From NCBI GenBank assembly GCA_964016885.1, contig OZ024763.1:4526001-4590000 (forward strand): a stretch of 64,000 bases of DNA, written 5' to 3'. The stretch is from Eledone cirrhosa. Its lineage: Eukaryota. This document shows positions 1,116 to 44,881 of this stretch, one piece after another (the first letter of the stretch is position 1; each line of letters starts with the position of its first letter). A program made the position numbers and the translations under genes. Under the pieces are notes generated by a model. That model was not told the origin of the DNA. It saw only the letters and a program-made list of their open reading frames with translations, and did no database searches.

Positions 1116-2146
1116 TTTTAATTTCTTTCACCAATTCTTACGTTTTTTAATTATTTTTCTTAGTTTCGTTCATTATTTTGTTTTGTTTTTTCCTTTCATT
1201 TATTATTTCTTTCTTCTCTATCCCTTATTTCTTTCTCCTCCAACCCCCAACCTACCATCACCTCTCTTCTTTTCTCGCTCTCTTTCATTGTAGTCTTTCT
1301 TCATCTTTCTTTTTCTTTATTCTTTTCTATTATTCTTTCTCTCTTTCTCTTTCACTAATTCATTCTTACTTTCTTTTCTTTTCTAATTTGTTTTCTTCAT
1401 ATCATTCATTAGTTCTTTCTATTTCATCTATAACTTCATTTTTTTGTCTCTCCCTCTCTTTATTCTTTTCTTTTCTCCTTTTTCTCCCCCCCCCCTTCAG
1501 TTTATTCTGTTTGTCTCTCTGTCTGTCTATCTGTTTGTCTTTCTCTGTCAGCAAATGACGTCAAAGTTGAGAAAGGTGTTGGGAGTGGGGTTTATGTTGG
1601 GGTGGGGCGGAATAGTTGTTCTTTGTAAGTTTCTTTAAACACCAAGTCATGAGAAAGCTAGCTAGACACGTGACCACCGACAGAACCAACAGCCATTTCA
1701 AGTCAAGGAGTGAGTGTCTACGTGTTTGTTTGTTTGACCAGCTAGAAATAGCAGCCAAATCTCGTAGTCATAATCCATCGTGAACAGACCACCATCACAA
1801 TTACTAGCGCTACGACCACCACAATCACCACCACCACAATCACCAACAACAACACCAGCACGGCCACCAACAACAATACCACCACCACCACAACAACACC
1901 ACCACCACCACCACCACCACCACCACCACCACCACCACAACAACACCACCACCACAATCTCTCTCTCTCTCTCCCCCATTTCATATCACGTTGCTCTAGT
2001 ATATTCAACTGAAAATGTGTACTAGCAGTAGCTAGATCAACTGGCAGTTTGTTCTGTAGCAAATGTTGTAGTCACTTAAGACAAGGTAACCGAGATAAGC
2101 ACCGGCGTGAAGAGGCAGCTCGAGACAGATTTTGACTGTTTAGACA

Positions 2147-3170
2147 TTATTGGTGAATGGGCATTATCAGTAGAGGGTCGGACGCCATGCTTTCCAGCAT
2201 AGAATTACGCCCCTTTATGACCTGAGTTCAATTATTGGTGAATGGGCATTATCAGTAGAGGGTCGGACGCCATGCTTTCCAGCATAGAATTTACGCCCCT
2301 TTATGACCTGAGTTCAATTATTGGTGAATGGGCATTATCAGTAGAGGGTCGGACGCCATGCTTTCCAGCATAGAATTTACGCCCCTTTATGACCTGAGTT
2401 CAATTATTGGTGAATGGGCATTATCAGTAGAGGGTCGGACGCCATGCTTTCCAGCATAGAATTACGTCCCTTTATGACCTGAGTTCAATTATTGGTGAAT
2501 GGGCATTATCAGTAGAGGGTCGGACGCCATGCTTTCCAGCATAGAATTACGTCCCTTTATGACCTGAGTTCAATTATTGGTGAATGGGCATTATCAGTAG
2601 AGGGTCGGACGCCATGCTTTCCAGCATAGAATTTACGCCCCTTTATGACCTGAGTTCAATTATTGGTGAATGGGCATTATCAGTAGAGGGTCGGACGCCA
2701 TGCTTTCCAGCATAGAATTACGTCCCTTTATGACCTGAGTTCAATTATTGGTGAATGGGCATTATCAGTAGAGGGTCGGACGCCATGCTTTCCAGCATAG
2801 AATTACGTCCCTTTATGACCTGAGTTCAATTATTGGTGAATGGGCATTATCAATAGAGGGTCGGACGCCATGCTTTCCAGCATAGAATTACGTCCCTTTA
2901 TGACCTGAGTTCAATTATTGGTGAATGGGCATTATCAGTAGAGGGTCGGACGCCATGCTTTCCAGCATAGAATTACGTCCCTTTATGACCTGAGTTCAAT
3001 TATTGGTGAATGGGCATTATCAGTAGAGGGTCGGACGCCATGCTTTCCAGCATAGAATTTACGCCCCTTTATGACCTGAGTTCAATTATTGGTGAATGGG
3101 CATTATCAGTAGAGGGTCGGACGCCATGCTTTCCAGCATAGAATTACGCCCCTTTATGACCTGAGTTCAA
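2147..3170 (+). repeat. Tandem array (12 x ~85 bp) of the tRNA-like SINE head
   Basis: The unit ATTATTGGTGAATGGGCATTATCAGTAGAGGGTCGGACGCCATG...GACCTGAGTTCA matches the 5' half of the SINE at 29470. The last unit runs on into the SINE body. Confidence 0.92.
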
Positions 3171-3559: not shown

Positions 3560-4580
3560 TGATGGTACAAGTTGGTCTTTATTCACGCTATGACCTCCTC
3601 TCCCACATCCACGACACCAATCACGCCCTTAGACTTTTCAACTTCTTCTTCTCTTCACCCTAGACATCATCTCTCTCTATACCGCCATTCATCACAATGA
3701 CGGCATCCGCGCTCTCCGACACTTTTTTAGACCTACACTCTAACCTTTATCCCTGCACTATTACTTTTCTCCGTCTTGCTGAGCTTGTTCTGGCCCTCAA
3801 TAGGTTTTCCTTTTCCGGAGAGTTTTACCAGCGGGTCTCTGGGGGTAGTCATGGGAACCAGAATAGGTCCGAACCATGCCGACTTGTTTGTTGGCTACGT
3901 CGAGGCGCAGATCTTCTCCCAGTACACTAGACCTACTCCTGAGCTATACGGTCGTTATATCGACGACTGCATCGGCACCACATCTCTCTCCCGTGAACAG
4001 ATCAATTGCTTTCTCTCCTTCGTCCAATCGTTTCATCCCGCTGTCAACTTCACCACTTCGTCGGCTCTGTTGCCAGGACCGCCATTTAGAGACCCAGTCT
4101 CTTTACATGGCCTCCCGCTTCATCCAGCATGGATATCCCCACGCCCTGATCCAAGCTGCCGTCACATGTGCCCGTGAAACCAACCGTGCTTTTTTCCTAA
4201 CCCACCCATCACCGCGTTTAAGTGTATCCGTAATCTCTGCGACCCCCTAATACACAGTTCGTTCCTTTCCTCTCCTAGAACTCCACCCGGCTCTCATCCT
4301 TGTTCTCGTCCCCGCTGTAACATTTGTTCGTTCATTTTTAATGGTTCATTCCGTATCTGCCACTCCTTCACCTCACATCCACTCGCATAGTCAATGCCCT
4401 CCGGTGTTCCCTTTGCGGGTCCTTCCTTATACATCGGACAAACAGGAGGCGGTTTGGCGGACCCCTTTTGCTGAACATTTAAAGGAAATACAACGCGGTA
4501 TGTATGGATACTCACCGCACTCGTCATTTCCGTTCCTCCCCAGGTCATCTTTCCACTACGTGTCTCAGTCCTTGCTGTCC
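3560..4580 (+). pseudogene. Decayed Penelope-like element (RT + GIY-YIG fragments)
   Basis: Frameshifted pieces read LAELVLALNRFSFSGEFYQ / GVVMGTRIGPNHADLFVG / YGRYIDDCIG (RT motifs), then CSRPRCNIC, YIGQTG and FAEHL (GIY-YIG region). Confidence 0.88.
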
Positions 4581-4598
4581 TTTAACATCATGGATCAC

Positions 4599-4697
<99 letters not shown>

Positions 4698-4757
4698 CAT
4701 ACATCATACACAAAACGCCAGCATCAATAGTTCTCCAAGAGATGCCAACATGAATGT

Positions 4758-5045
4758 TAATTTTCAAAATATGTAATTTAAGTTATTTCAGGGTAAAGAA
4801 TCATATTTTAGGTTTTAAAAGCTAATAGGTATTTGTATTAATATTATAATATAATTATGTTTAATTCCTAAAATTCAAATTTTATGAAAATTAAATTTTC
4901 ATAAAATTTGAAATTTCATAAAATTTGAATTTTAGAAATTAAACATAATTATATTATAATATTAATACAAATACCTATTAACTTTTAAAACCTAAAATAT
5001 GATTCTTAACCCTGAAATAACTTAAATTAAATATTTTGAAAATTA
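4758..5045. repeat. Long AT-rich fold-back palindrome (~135-bp arms)
   Basis: TAATTTTCAAAATAT...AATTTTATGAAA is the reverse complement of TTTCATAAAATT...ATATTTTGAAAATTA with few mismatches. The centre contains a nested extra inverted copy. Confidence 0.9.
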
Positions 5046-5450
5046 GCCGCCAACTATATTATTCTGGACACGTGTTGCTTACATAAAAATCTGTGTGTAT
5101 ATAAACTTGAACATAAACTATTTCCCTTTGTCTCTCTCGCTCTCTTTAATCATCTTTCATCTGTCTGTTCAAGCCACCTAGTAAATATATTATCACATCA
5201 GCTGTTTCTTCCTCTATGCTTTCCTTTCCCTCCTCTTTTTCCAGTAGTTTTTAAAAATTAAAATTTTATAACTGTTATATTGATGCCATGTATTTCTTAA
5301 ACTCTATTACACGCACCCTCTCTATTGTTTGTATTATGTTATCTCATGTTCTCAATATTAGGGTATAAATATTGAGTTTTGTCATAAGTTAATCACTACC
5401 TTGACTGAATCTTAACCATCTATTATGTCAGAGTATGTCATGTATCATTT

Positions 5451-5517
5451 TATTTTATCTGATGAGGACGTACTGTTGAACTTAACTCAGTACCTCTGAA
5501 ATATGTATAATAAAATA
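5451..5517 (+). ncRNA. Type I hammerhead ribozyme
   Basis: Stem I TATTTTAT/ATAAAATA (8 bp); CTGATGA at 5459; stem II GGACGTACTG/CAGTACCTCT; GAAA at 5498; short near-palindromic stem III ATATGTAT; UA cleavage site. Confidence 0.85.
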
Positions 5518-5721
5518 TAATTGATCACAAGAATATCTATTTTGTTTATATTTTGAATTAATATTATATATATATATATATATTTATTTATATATACATA
5601 ATTGATATATATACAAATTGATATATATATATGTGTGCGCGTGTGCGTGTGTCACCTTGATCCGCTTGACCGGCCAAACTGTCGGATGTCGCTTTGAATC
5701 CGATTACCACAGCATTTGTGT

Positions 5722-5900
5722 ATAATTGTTTCTACTTTTGGCACAAGGCCAGCAAATACCCAGTGCATTACTGGTACTTTATTTTATCGACCCCCGTAAG
5801 GATGAAAGGCAAAGCTAACCTCGGCGGGATTTGAACTCAGATCATAAAGGGCCGTAACTCTTTGCTGCAAAGCATGGCGTCCGACTCTCTACCGATGTAT
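5722..5900 (-). mobile_element. tRNA-derived SINE copy
   Basis: Reverse complement of the consensus seen at 29470-29660. Confidence 0.88.
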
Positions 5901-6074
5901 AATAATCATACATAAGACTCGCTCTAATCAGTTTAATTTGTTATCACAGCTCTCTCACATCATTACTGGGATAGTTGTGATATGATCACAACTCAGCACA
6001 TTCATGGCGAGACTCACATATATCTGTTATATATAAATATATCTTATATGCCTCCATATACACCTTGATTCGCA

Positions 6075-9305: not shown

Positions 9306-9577
<272 letters not shown>

Positions 9578-9605
9578 ATGTATATATATATATGTATATG
9601 TATAT

Positions 9606-9655
<50 letters not shown>

Positions 9656-9754
9656 GTGTGAATGAAGTAATTCCATCGGAAAAGTCCAGGAAAAAAAAGT
9701 GCTCTATGTAGGCAACAGAGCTTAATTATTATTATTATGTAATAAACAGGATTT

Positions 9755-9814
9755 TTTCATTCTGAGGATTGAAAGCAAAACCTTTTGCTTTTAAGAAACC
9801 ACTGGTAAATGGAA
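9755..9814 (+). ncRNA. Type I hammerhead ribozyme
   Basis: Stem I TTTCATT/AATGGAA; CTGAGGA at 9762; long stem II TTGAAAGCAAAA/TTTTGCTTTTAA; GAAA at 9795; stem III ACCACTGGT; GUA cleavage triplet. Confidence 0.9.
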
Positions 9815-10110
9815 TAATTGCCTTATGTTGTTTATTACATAATAATAATATATGTATATATATATAAGTTTGTCCCGGGTTCAATCGGGGGGTAACCACA
9901 GTAAGTAAGGTACTCAATACAAAGCGGAGTATAAATATTTAATGTAGAAAGGCTTCTACAGGACTAGAACTGTTTCATTCCGGAGAAATTATATATATAT
10001 ATAGGTATTGAAGTTTCCGTTGAAAATTGAAAAAAGTCATAGGAGTGAAGAGTGCTCTATGTAAGTACCAGAGCAAAATTTAATGTGTAATAAACAATAC
10101 AATATAATTA

Positions 10111-10180
10111 CCTCATTACCAGAGGTTTCCTGAATAAGACGAATACGAAAGAAACGTCTTCATTCGTTCGTCGGACGAGG
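10111..10180 (-). ncRNA. Type I hammerhead ribozyme, core variant CCGACGA
   Basis: Minus strand: CCTCGT-CCGACGA-acGAATGAAGACG...CGTCTTATTCag-GAAA-CCTCTGG-TA-ATGAGG. Stem I is CCTCGT/ATGAGG. Confidence 0.75.
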
Positions 10181-10298
10181 CAATATAAAACATAGTGAAA
10201 TATTTGGAAAGTCTCCTCAAGAAATGTTTAAAAAAATATATATATATAAATAAAGGTAATGCAATAGACATATAAAATATATAAAAATAGACATATAA

Positions 10299-31204: not shown

Positions 31205-31586
31205 ATGGGGCAGTGGATTGGCAGTATCGGTAGAGGGTCGGGCGTCATGTTTTGACGCATGGAGTTATGGCCCTTGCCATTCTGAATTCAAATCCCACCG
31301 AGGTTAACTTTGCCTTTCATCCTTACGGGGTAGATAAAATAAAGTACCAGTAATGTACTGGGGTAATTGCTGGCCTTGTGCCAATAGTAGAAACAATTAT
31401 TTGGATTGGCAGTATCGGTAGAGGGTCGGACGCCATGCTTTCCAGCATAGTTACGTCCCTTTACGGTCTGAGTTCAAATCCCGCCGAGGTTGACTTTGCC
31501 TTTCATCCTTACGGGGTCGATACAATAAAGTACCAGTAATGTACTGGGTAATTGGTGGCCTTGTGCCAAAAGTAGAAACAATTATT
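31205..31586 (+). mobile_element. Head-to-tail SINE dimer
   Basis: Two consecutive copies of different subtypes; ATTATTTAATATTAACAA flanks the pair on both sides. Confidence 0.88.
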
Positions 31587-32071
31587 TAATATTAACAAAC
31601 TATACTGACATTAAACTTTGTACGGAATGTGATACATAGGCATTCCATGTAATGTACACACACGCATACACAGCAATCTAACCCACTTACATTGCACGGC
31701 TTTCTATGTAAACGAACGTTTCACATGTACATATAAGTATATATATATATATAAGTAGTAGAGGTGCAATTTGATTGCGTTCACAGGCGGTATGCCAAGA
31801 TGAGCACTCGATGCTATTGGGGATCAGAGCATCAATAATAATAAATAGGGAACAAAGAATCAGTATTGCATCATACACATATTTAATTACATATTACATA
31901 TGTTCCACTGCCAATCAGCTCGAAGAACGATCGATTATGTTCGTTCCTGACTCTGGAATCGAAAGCTCTTCAGACATGTGTTCTCACATGTAGACGTGAG
32001 TCTACAACAAAACAAAGAATGCAGAGCAATGAAAATATACATTAGTTTGACGCTTAATATAGTAGGAAAAG

Positions 32072-34106: not shown

Positions 34107-35113
34107 AGAGTTACGGTACTTGCCATTCTGAGTTCAAATCCCGCCGAGGTTAACTTTGCTTTTCATCCTTACGGGGTTGATAAAATAAAGTACCAGTAAT
34201 GCACTGGGGTAATTGCTGGCTTTGTGCCAAAAGTAGAAACAATATGTGTATATAACAGTTATTGGTAAATTGTATAAGTGAGTTAGCTTCCTTAGGTTCT
34301 TATTGAAAAAAAAAATGTAAAAAACATCGAAACAATTCGATTTAAATTCAAGGAGATTCGGAGAGAAAAACGAAAGTACCAGTAATGCACTGGGTAATTG
34401 CTGGCTTGTGCCAAAAGTAGAAACAATATGTGTATATAACAGTTATTGGTAAATTGTATAAGTGAGTTAGCTTCCTTAGGTTCTTATTGAAAAAAAAAAT
34501 GTAAAAAACATCGAAACAATTCGATTTAAATTCAAGGAGATTCGGAGAGAAAAACGAAAGTACCAGTAATGCACTGGGGTAATTGCTGGCTTGTGCCAAA
34601 AGTAGAAACAATATGTGTATATAACAGTTATTGGTAAATTGTATAAGTGAGTTAGCTTCCTTAGGTTCTTATTGAAAAAAAAATGTAAAAAACATCGAAA
34701 CAATACGATTTAAATTCAAGGAGATTCGGAGAGAAAAACGAAAGTACCAGTAATGCACTGGGGTAATTGCTGGCTTGTGCCAAAAGTAGAAACAATATGT
34801 GTATATAACAGTTATTGGTAAATTGTATAAGTGAGTTAGCTTCCTTAGGTTCTTATTGAAAAAAAAATGTAAAAAACATCGAAACAATTCGATTTAAATT
34901 CAAGGAGATTCGGAGAGAAAAACGAAAGTACCAGTAATGCACTGGGTAATTGCTGGCTTGTGCCAAAAGTAGAAACAATATGTGTATATAACAGTTATTG
35001 GTAAATTGTATAAGTGAGTTAGCTTCCTTAGGTTCTTATTGAAAAAAAAAATGTAAAAAACATCGAAACAATTCGATTTAAATTCAAGGAGATTCGGAGA
35101 GAAAAAACGAAAG
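34107..35113 (+). repeat. 5'-truncated SINE followed by 5 x ~185-bp tandem of SINE tail plus unique flank
   Basis: Each unit starts AAGTACCAGTAATGCACTGG (SINE 3' part) and continues into about 130 bp of non-SINE sequence ending GAGAAAAACGA. Confidence 0.9.
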
Positions 35114-44379: not shown

Positions 44380-44881
44380 AATTGTTTCTACTTTAGGCAC
44401 AAGGCCAGCAAATACCCAGTTCATTACTGGTACTTTATTTTATCGACTCCGTAAGGATGAAAGGCAAAGTCAACCTCGGCGGGATTTGAACTCAGATCGT
44501 AAAGAGACGTAACTATGCTGGAAAGCATGGCGTCCGACCCTCTACCGATACTGCCAATCCACCGCCCTAACATGGTGTCCGACCCTCTACCGATACTGCC
44601 AATCCACCGCCCTAGCATGGCGTCCGACCCTCTACCGATACTGCCAATCCACCGCCCTAGCATGGTGTCCGACCCTCTACCGATACTGCCAATCCACCGC
44701 CCTAGCATGGCGTCCGACCCTCTACCGATACTGCCAATCCACCGCCCTAGCATGGCGTCCGACCCTCTACCGATACTGCCAATCCACCGCCCTAGCATGG
44801 TGTCCGACCCTCTACCGATACTGCCAATCCACCGCCCTAGCATGGTGTCCGACCCTCTACCGATACTGCTAATCCACCGCC
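44380..44881 (-). mobile_element. SINE with 8 x 45-bp amplified head inside one TSD
   Basis: TSD GATATAAACATTAAT at 44368 and 44882; unit CATGG(C/T)GTCCGACCCTCTACCGATACTGCCAATCCACCGCCCTAG. Confidence 0.92.

What the first reader, a model, noticed from the sequence alone, without database searches (positions are those of the whole stretch)
9726..9850. Best-formed ribozyme sits inside a ~22-bp terminal inverted repeat
Seen: TATTATTATTATGTAATAAACA ... TGTTTATTACATAATAATAATA encloses an intact HHR with a GUA site, giving a ~125-nt rod with the catalytic core at its apex, between (TA)n tracts. The inverted arm continues leftward with GTGCTCTATGTAGGCAACAGAGC, which is shared with the 10050-10180 element. 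This is the top candidate for an active ribozyme.
Basis: partly seen in the sequence, partly recalled or inferred. Interest (0 to 1): 0.7.

Follow-up and report, generated by a model that had tools for sequence, protein, structure and literature searches.

The report
Clipped Penelope retrotransposon end with hammerhead
This hairpin is the clipped end of a jumping gene that has thousands of copies in this animal genome: the hammerhead motif in it is real but ordinary, its mirror-image arm likely arose while the element was being copied in, and on its own the RNA is predicted to cut itself poorly.

Summary
The sequence is as described: a type I hammerhead at 9755-9814 (GUA site, cut after 9807) inside a perfect 22-bp inverted repeat. 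The reading as a terminal inverted repeat that presents a top-candidate ribozyme is wrong. The locus is a 190-bp, 5'-truncated insertion of a young Hydra-clade Penelope-like retrotransposon, with thousands of 3' ends and intact 710-aa RT/GIY-YIG copies. The left arm (9661-9748) is the element's 3' end plus a ~65-nt 'tail', inverted. The right arm (9747-9850) is the same 3' end without the tail. Arm overlap ranges from a few bases to kilobases between copies, so 22 bp is incidental. The hammerhead is identical in 49 of 86 sampled ends. The rod is predicted to lower, not raise, hammerhead folding. The motif looks like a dimer-type ribozyme with no partner here. The two neighbours are ends of other repeat families with the same design. 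The architecture is published (Craig 2021; Arkhipova 2013; Frangieh 2024), and the scan noted similar two-armed Penelope ends elsewhere in this genome. Verdict: a new family of a known kind, of modest interest.

The parts
9320..9655 (.). (TA)n-type microsatellite, left flank and likely insertion target
   Evidence: family ends abut (TA)n throughout
9661..9748 (-). Inverted arm: last ~22 nt of the element's 3' end followed by the ~65-nt 'tail', which is the start of the 5' UTR of full-length copies
   Evidence: 86 of 88 nt identical to the 3'-end/5'-UTR junction of intact copy L061; the tail runs on into the ORF in L032 and tandem copies
9727..9748 (+). Left arm of the 22-bp inverted repeat (the overlap of the two arms)
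9747..9748 (.). Head-to-head junction, 2-nt overlap CA; an AATAAACA word lies beside it in both arms of the family sequence
   Evidence: loose contig ends at 9747 and 9748 in public runs
9747..9850 (+). Sense arm: 5'-truncated 3' end (pLTR) of the Hydra-clade element, ending at the 'short' end
   Evidence: near-identical to the terminal pLTR of L061
9755..9814 (+). Type I hammerhead motif: stem I 7 bp, CUGAGGA, stem II 12 bp (U10.1-A11.1), GAAA, palindromic helix III, GUA; predicted cut between 9807 and 9808
9829..9850 (+). Right arm of the 22-bp inverted repeat, the element's 3' terminus
9851..9866 (.). Short (TA)n run, right flank
9867..9989 (-). Neighbour: tail-bearing 3' end of a second hammerhead repeat family with the same two-armed design; truncated inside its hammerhead (no CUGAUGA)
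10004..10290 (-). Neighbour: tail-bearing 3' end of a sister Hydra-type family, hammerhead with a CCGACGA core at 10117-10174
   Evidence: ORF ends 57-59% identical to this family's protein lie upstream in L073 and L074, and a 72%-identical ORF abuts it in L088

Best explanation
The locus is a 190-bp, 5'-truncated, two-armed insertion of a young Penelope-like retrotransposon with the motifs of the Hydra clade, and the hammerhead is that element's standard 3'-end motif, predicted to need a dimer partner or the element's protein to cut. Shown: full-length copies read tail/5' UTR, a 710-aa telomerase-like RT plus GIY-YIG-type domain, a GUG hammerhead, a microsatellite spacer, then this hammerhead and the 3' end; insertions end in (TA)n at two fixed points about 65 nt apart; head-to-head pairs carry the tail on exactly one arm. 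Inferred: the protein nicks (TA)n and primes reverse transcription inside the RNA at those two points (by analogy with Frangieh 2024). The second arm is likely made by fold-back (self-priming) copying, because most short insertions are symmetric palindromes whose arms share subfamily marks. This copy is an asymmetric product, likely made by a template jump or a deletion across the palindrome centre at a 2-nt overlap, which left 22 bp of overlap by chance. Cleavage at 9807/9808 is probably not needed for insertion.
For: Dispersed family: 3,927 exact matches of a 27-mer and 1,868 of the young 3' end. The 150 ORF matches scored were all 95-100% identical. 19 of 20 loci picked for long frames hold a 709-711-aa ORF, and 18 of the 20 hold the identical hammerhead. 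The model (pLDDT 94) matches telomerase RTs best (Foldseek rank 1-4; Z 17.6, rmsd 2.9, 274 aligned). RWK, DKT, CxCx5C, CxxC and CxH motifs are present and conserved in 117 sequences. 23 of 23 head-to-head pairs in a chromosome-order sample have one tailed and one short end. 15 of 18 short pairs in that sample, and 9 of 10 in a tail-picked set, are symmetric with loops of 0-9 nt. Arms of 20 short pairs differ by 1.7 positions on average and share subfamily variants. Two copies of the hammerhead co-fold into the double-hammerhead as MFE, -32.8 against 2 x -12.4 kcal/mol. Recurrent stem I variants keep pairing and N7 varies. Literature: inverted truncated copy, tail and (TA)n target in PMC8557442; two RT start sites equal to the tail, and a protein-assisted hammerhead not needed for insertion, in PMC11167929; junction palindromes read as self-priming in PMC3846280; monomers inactive in PMC4209133.
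Against: This copy is in the asymmetric minority, and simple fold-back from a tail-primed strand cannot give a tailed arm shorter than the other arm without a further jump or deletion. All 6 long pairs in the sample are asymmetric, in both directions. Shared variants between arms fit two primings on one RNA, or later gene conversion, as well as fold-back. Pfam finds no RT or GIY-YIG family in the protein; the GIY-YIG call rests on motifs and a profile alignment to another PLE (prob. 95%), not on a separate fold search. The tail here is about 65 nt, longer than the 30-40 bp in the papers. No tree with published Hydra proteins was built. No RNA or cleavage data.
Confidence: 0.9

Rival explanations
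1. Same element, but the two arms come from two independent primings, one at each nicked target strand and each start site, later joined head to head; no fold-back is involved.
For: 23 of 23 pairs have one tailed and one short end. The Anolis protein nicks and extends both strands and is predicted to be a dimer (PMC11167929). Asymmetric copies such as this one, with either arm the longer, arise naturally.
Against: Two independent copies should stop at unrelated points, yet 15 of 18 short pairs stop within 9 nt of each other at positions from about -36 to -123, often at local hairpins such as stem II.
Confidence: 0.3
2. A MITE-like DNA element or a rod-shaped retrozyme monomer with true terminal inverted repeats that present an active ribozyme.
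For: Perfect 22-bp repeat and a stable rod; intact core; a hammerhead-compatible fold lies only 2.1 kcal/mol above the MFE.
Against: Repeat length is not fixed (3 to more than 1,000 bp). The element extends 65 nt past the repeat. The sequence is the 3' end of an RT-coding unit. There is no tandem array of this unit here. The arms lower stem I pairing from 0.6-0.8 to 0.12.
Confidence: 0.04
3. This copy has been kept by the host as a functional ribozyme or hairpin RNA.
For: The core is intact.
Against: It is identical to the commonest family sequence (110 of 209 terminal hammerheads in the fetched loci), so intactness reflects youth. No credible gene overlaps it.
Confidence: 0.03

Closest known systems
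Hydra-clade Penelope-like elements, nearest named family Hydra-1_Obim (Craig et al. 2021, PMC8557442; passages, section 11, supplement hits and part 2 read)
   Same: C-terminal-EN ORF with RWK, DKT, CxCx5C, CxxC and CxH; (TA)n target; 3' type I hammerhead with palindromic helix III (ACCA.TGGT in both); inverted 5'-truncated copy and tail.
   Different: A different family: 23 of the first 40 residues match Hydra-1_Obim by eye, and stems I and II differ. The unit is about 4.3 kb instead of under 3 kb, because of a second hammerhead and a 1.3-1.5-kb microsatellite spacer. The tail is about 65 nt. Thousands of young copies, many with intact ORFs.
Poseidon element of Anolis, PAc (Frangieh et al. 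2024, PMC11167929; parts 1-2 of 4 read)
   Same: Two fixed ends that bracket a tail; AT-rich target; hammerhead near the pLTR-ORF junction; no sign of cleaved RNA being the template.
   Different: Different clade. There the hammerhead overlaps the start codon; here it ends about 230 nt before it. The two start sites were shown in vitro there and are inferred from genomic ends here.
Minimal or dimer-type PLE hammerheads (Cervera and de la Pena 2014, PMC4209133; parts 1-2 of 4 read)
   Same: Type I, long helix II, palindromic helix III, mostly solo truncated copies, close pairs on opposite strands.
   Different: U10.1-A11.1 instead of the conserved G10.1-C11.1; 12-bp helix II; GUA site.
Adineta Penelope elements (Arkhipova et al. 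2013, PMC3846280; passages read)
   Same: Head-to-head inverted pLTR, tail on one arm, palindromes at the junction, 3' pLTR set off by a captured spacer (Pen1_Av).
   Different: There a few copies; here enough copies to count symmetry and end types.
Non-LTR retrozymes (PMC7229834, passages; bioRxiv 10.64898/2026.07.22.740005, part 1 of 5, supplements closed)
   Same: Type I hammerhead of PLE ancestry in a short non-coding insertion.
   Different: Not a tandem repeat; a single truncated fragment of an autonomous element.

Membership tests
Penelope-like elements (EN+) | Single ORF with telomerase-like RT | tested here: met
   710-aa ORF in linked copies; best structural matches are TERTs; YRDD 100% conserved. 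The window copy itself has no ORF.
Penelope-like elements (EN+) | C-terminal GIY-YIG endonuclease | tested here: inconclusive
   VVY..YVG motif with Y576, Y594 and G596 invariant, aligned to the EN of another PLE; Pfam gives no hit; the domain was not fold-searched alone.
Penelope-like elements (EN+) | Partial tandems (pLTR) and inverted 5'-truncated copies | tested here: met
Penelope-like elements (EN+) | Optional tail on one end, equal to the start of the unit | tested here: met
   23 of 23 pairs; the tail continues into the 5' UTR; about 65 nt rather than 30-40
Hydra clade | RWK and DKT motifs | tested here: met
   R37-W-K and D114-K-T
Hydra clade | CxCx5C linker; CxxC and CxH around the conserved E and N; no CCHH | tested here: met
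   C555/C557/C563, C658/C661, E664, N680, C689/H691; the two Cys of the other PLE's EN have no counterpart
Hydra clade | Insertion into (TA)n and a canonical 3' hammerhead | tested here: met
Hydra clade | Generally under 3 kb | tested here: not met
   Unit about 4.3 kb; UTR to first hammerhead about 2.8 kb. The paper gives this as a tendency, not a rule.
Hydra clade | RT phylogeny with published Hydra proteins | not tested
   Published sequences were seen only as text in a supplement and compared by eye
Type I hammerhead ribozyme | CUGANGA, GAAA, NUH with helices I-III | tested here: met
Type I hammerhead ribozyme | G10.1-C11.1 pair typical of canonical and PLE hammerheads | tested here: not met
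   U9769-A9794, nearly fixed in the family; many published Hydra motifs also deviate here
Type I hammerhead ribozyme | Mg2+-dependent self-cleavage | not testable with these tools
   needs a bench assay
MITE / TIR DNA transposon | Fixed-length inverted repeats at both termini | tested here: not met
   The repeat varies from 3 bp to kilobases and is not terminal on the left
Non-LTR retrozyme | Head-to-tail array of 150-450-nt hammerhead units, independent of an ORF | tested here: not met
   No such array at this locus; the motif is the end of an ORF-bearing unit

The most novel reading that the evidence does not exclude
The full-length element carries a built-in one-way hammerhead pair: the upstream copy, fixed for an uncuttable GUG (43 of 43) but with its core intact in 39 of 43, lends its core to cut the terminal GUA site and is never cut itself, so each unit is cleaved once. 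Against it: the mixed pair did not fold into the double hammerhead as MFE in any of 3 copies tried, core identity between the two motifs is within chance at about 16% divergence, and no genomic footprint of cleavage was found.
Probability: 0.08. Interest if true: 0.55.

Novelty: new member of a known kind. Interest (0 to 1): 0.22.

Why it matters
The locus itself is one of thousands of debris copies and explains nothing new. The family has some use. It is young, has many intact 710-aa ORFs, and gives countable footprints (two fixed ends, tail on one arm in 23 of 23 pairs, symmetric junctions in 15 of 18 short pairs) for an open question: how Penelope-like elements make their inverted arms. Of the papers read here, only a Poseidon element has been reconstituted in vitro; a Hydra-clade protein with a defined RNA would allow fold-back and twin priming to be told apart. 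As a ribozyme lead it is weak.

Tried and rejected
Rfam scan of the window: no match at gathering score. Pfam and PDB sequence searches of the ORF: nothing meaningful. Genomic footprint of self-cleavage: of 106 copies that depart from the family at the cut site, 47 were inspected (all 20 listed with A or G, 27 of 80 listed with C; 6 were not listed). Six were clear truncations there and 3 ambiguous. At a control position 4 nt upstream, 5 of 24 were truncations, one ambiguous. Against 3,927 intact copies this is no clear excess, so the lead was dropped. A cluster of junctions 75-95 nt upstream of the cut site was considered as an RNA 5' end; a local TTTTAAAA-type palindrome explains it as well, so it is unresolved. 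The long-pair figure mixes the two hammerhead types and was not used. One row of 25 (L226) was mis-parsed and left out. Mixed upstream/terminal hammerhead dimer: not the MFE. A-to-G editing marks in this copy's arms: none seen in the alignments. Sequencing runs: no RNA holder listed; contigs laid say nothing on expression. Earlier scan notes near this place or like this sequence: none. Literature searches listed no paper on this family; Repbase and Dfam could not be searched, so it may be catalogued there. The host is taken to be an octopus-like animal by inference only (genome size, nearest named family, earlier notes).

Full report
The observation. The 22-bp inverted repeat is real and perfect (9727-9748 and 9829-9850) and exceeds chance (longest 12 in 300 simulations), though half of it is a (TAT)n run. 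Between the arms lies a type I hammerhead: stem I 9755-9761/9808-9814, CUGAGGA, a 12-bp stem II closed by U-A, GAAA, a palindromic helix III and GUA, with the cut predicted after 9807. My motif scan found only this one and one at 10117-10174 on the minus strand in the window; Rfam found none.

It is a repeat. A search of the window's own 3.0-Gb genome gave 534 candidates, 40 scored, on many chromosomes. Exact-pattern counts are 3,927 for a 27-mer just 3' of the cut site and 1,868 for the young 3' end. Copies end at the same point in (TA)n, and many are preceded by an inverted copy that begins at a second fixed point about 65 nt further on. The window's left arm therefore starts at 9661, not 9726, and is 86 of 88 nt identical to the junction between the 3' end and the 5' UTR of an intact tandem copy.

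The parent element. Flanks of longer copies hold an ORF upstream of the same hammerhead. All 150 scored matches to a 222-aa piece were 95-100% identical. Of 20 loci picked for long frames, 19 have a 709-711-aa ORF and 18 hold a hammerhead identical to the window's. The unit reads tail/5' UTR, ORF, a GUG hammerhead, 1.3-1.5 kb of microsatellite-rich spacer, the GUA hammerhead and the 3' end. Pfam does not recognise the protein. A model built from 117 sequences (pLDDT 94) matches telomerase RTs best, and the profile aligns over 564 columns with another PLE protein of this genome. The Hydra-clade marks listed by Craig et al. 2021 (PMC8557442, section 11) are present and conserved. Their table has one octopus family, Hydra-1_Obim, which is related but distinct. 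No tree was built.

The inverted repeat. Its length is a property of each copy, from 3 bp to kilobases. In a chromosome-order sample of 86 ends (47 short, 38 tailed, 1 read-through; drawn from the first 100 listed matches), 23 of 23 head-to-head pairs have one tailed and one short end. Of 18 short pairs, 15 are symmetric palindromes with loops of 0-8 nt; 3 short and all 6 long pairs are asymmetric. Arms of short pairs share subfamily variants. The window copy is asymmetric: the tailed arm stops 21 nt 3' of the cut site, the sense arm starts about 61 nt 5' of it, and they overlap by CA at 9747-9748. Contigs of public runs have loose ends at exactly this junction. Inverted truncated copies and tails are described in PMC8557442, junction palindromes and self-priming in PMC3846280, and the tail as the span between two RT start sites in PMC11167929.

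Mechanism. Shown here: the anatomy, the two ends, the symmetry counts. Inferred: nicking of (TA)n, internal priming at the two ends, fold-back synthesis of the second arm, and a jump or central deletion in this copy. Twin priming on one RNA remains possible (about 30%).

The ribozyme. The arms do not help it: stem I pairing falls from 0.6-0.8 to 0.12, and the hammerhead fold costs 2.1 instead of 0.5 kcal/mol. Helix III is paired at about 0.1 in the monomer, while two copies give the double hammerhead as MFE. This copy has no sense partner of its own family nearby. Cervera and de la Pena 2014 (PMC4209133) found PLE monomers inactive and dimers weak, and list G10.1-C11.1 as conserved; this motif has U-A. 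Frangieh 2024 found the Anolis motif to need the protein and to be dispensable for insertion. I found no clear excess of copies truncated at the cut site (6 clear of 47 inspected, against 5 of 24 at a control position). In favour of some function in the parent, recurrent stem I variants keep pairing and N7 is the core position that varies.

Neighbours. The stretches 9867-9989 and 10004-10290 (both minus strand) are tail-bearing ends of two other repeat families (1,529 and 2,570 candidates). The second is linked to a related ORF; for the first, no ORF link was shown by tblastn in 15 loci. The shared GTGCTCTATGT..CAGAGC is a conserved tail hairpin of sister families. The (TA)n tract has collected three insertions.

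Verdict. Real motif, known kind of element, family not found in the papers searched (Repbase and Dfam not searchable; the preprint's supplements were closed). Earlier notes of this scan describe two-armed Penelope-type ends on other DNA of this genome; they agree but are not independent evidence. Interest 0.22.

Noticed in passing
L051-L070, 300-500 nt after the ORF: Full-length units carry a second, upstream hammerhead with GUG at the cut site in 43 of 43 copies and an intact core in 39 of 43.
   Followed up: partly
L008, L009, L010, L013, L026, L186; L112, L113, L115, L123, L230, L248, L253: Palindrome centres cluster at the stem II hairpin and at 75-95 nt upstream of the cut site, next to a TTTTAAAA-type palindrome.
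   Followed up: partly
window 60640-62128 (+): Fragment of a more distant Hydra-type ORF, 33-41% identical, with one frameshift; no canonical hammerhead found after it.
   Followed up: partly
window 10117-10174 (-): The sister family's hammerhead has CCGACGA in all 20 loci inspected, a fixed U4-to-C change in a high-copy family.
   Followed up: partly
L031:2147-6237: A 615-bp unit repeated about 6.6 times at 99.9% identity between two inverted arms of this family.
   Followed up: no
L098: A 91-bp tandem run of the third family's hammerhead end, a small retrozyme-like array.
   Followed up: no
L206, L208, L161: Tiny palindromic insertions in which one or both arms stop at or within 1-2 nt of the cut site.
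   Followed up: partly
L038:2-2164 (-) and 4369-5964 (-): Two other RT ORFs of PLE type, the first with a canonical GIY-YIG end, lie beside a copy of this family.
   Followed up: no
window 2146-3170, 31214-31587, 34187-35113, 44524-44881: Young tandem arrays (85, 186, 184 and 45 bp), three of them sharing a SINE-like sequence; the SINE label is recalled, not tested.
   Followed up: no
L063, about 110-125 nt upstream of the terminal hammerhead's cut site: A strong polypyrimidine tract ending in CAG, a possible splice acceptor in the pLTR.
   Followed up: no
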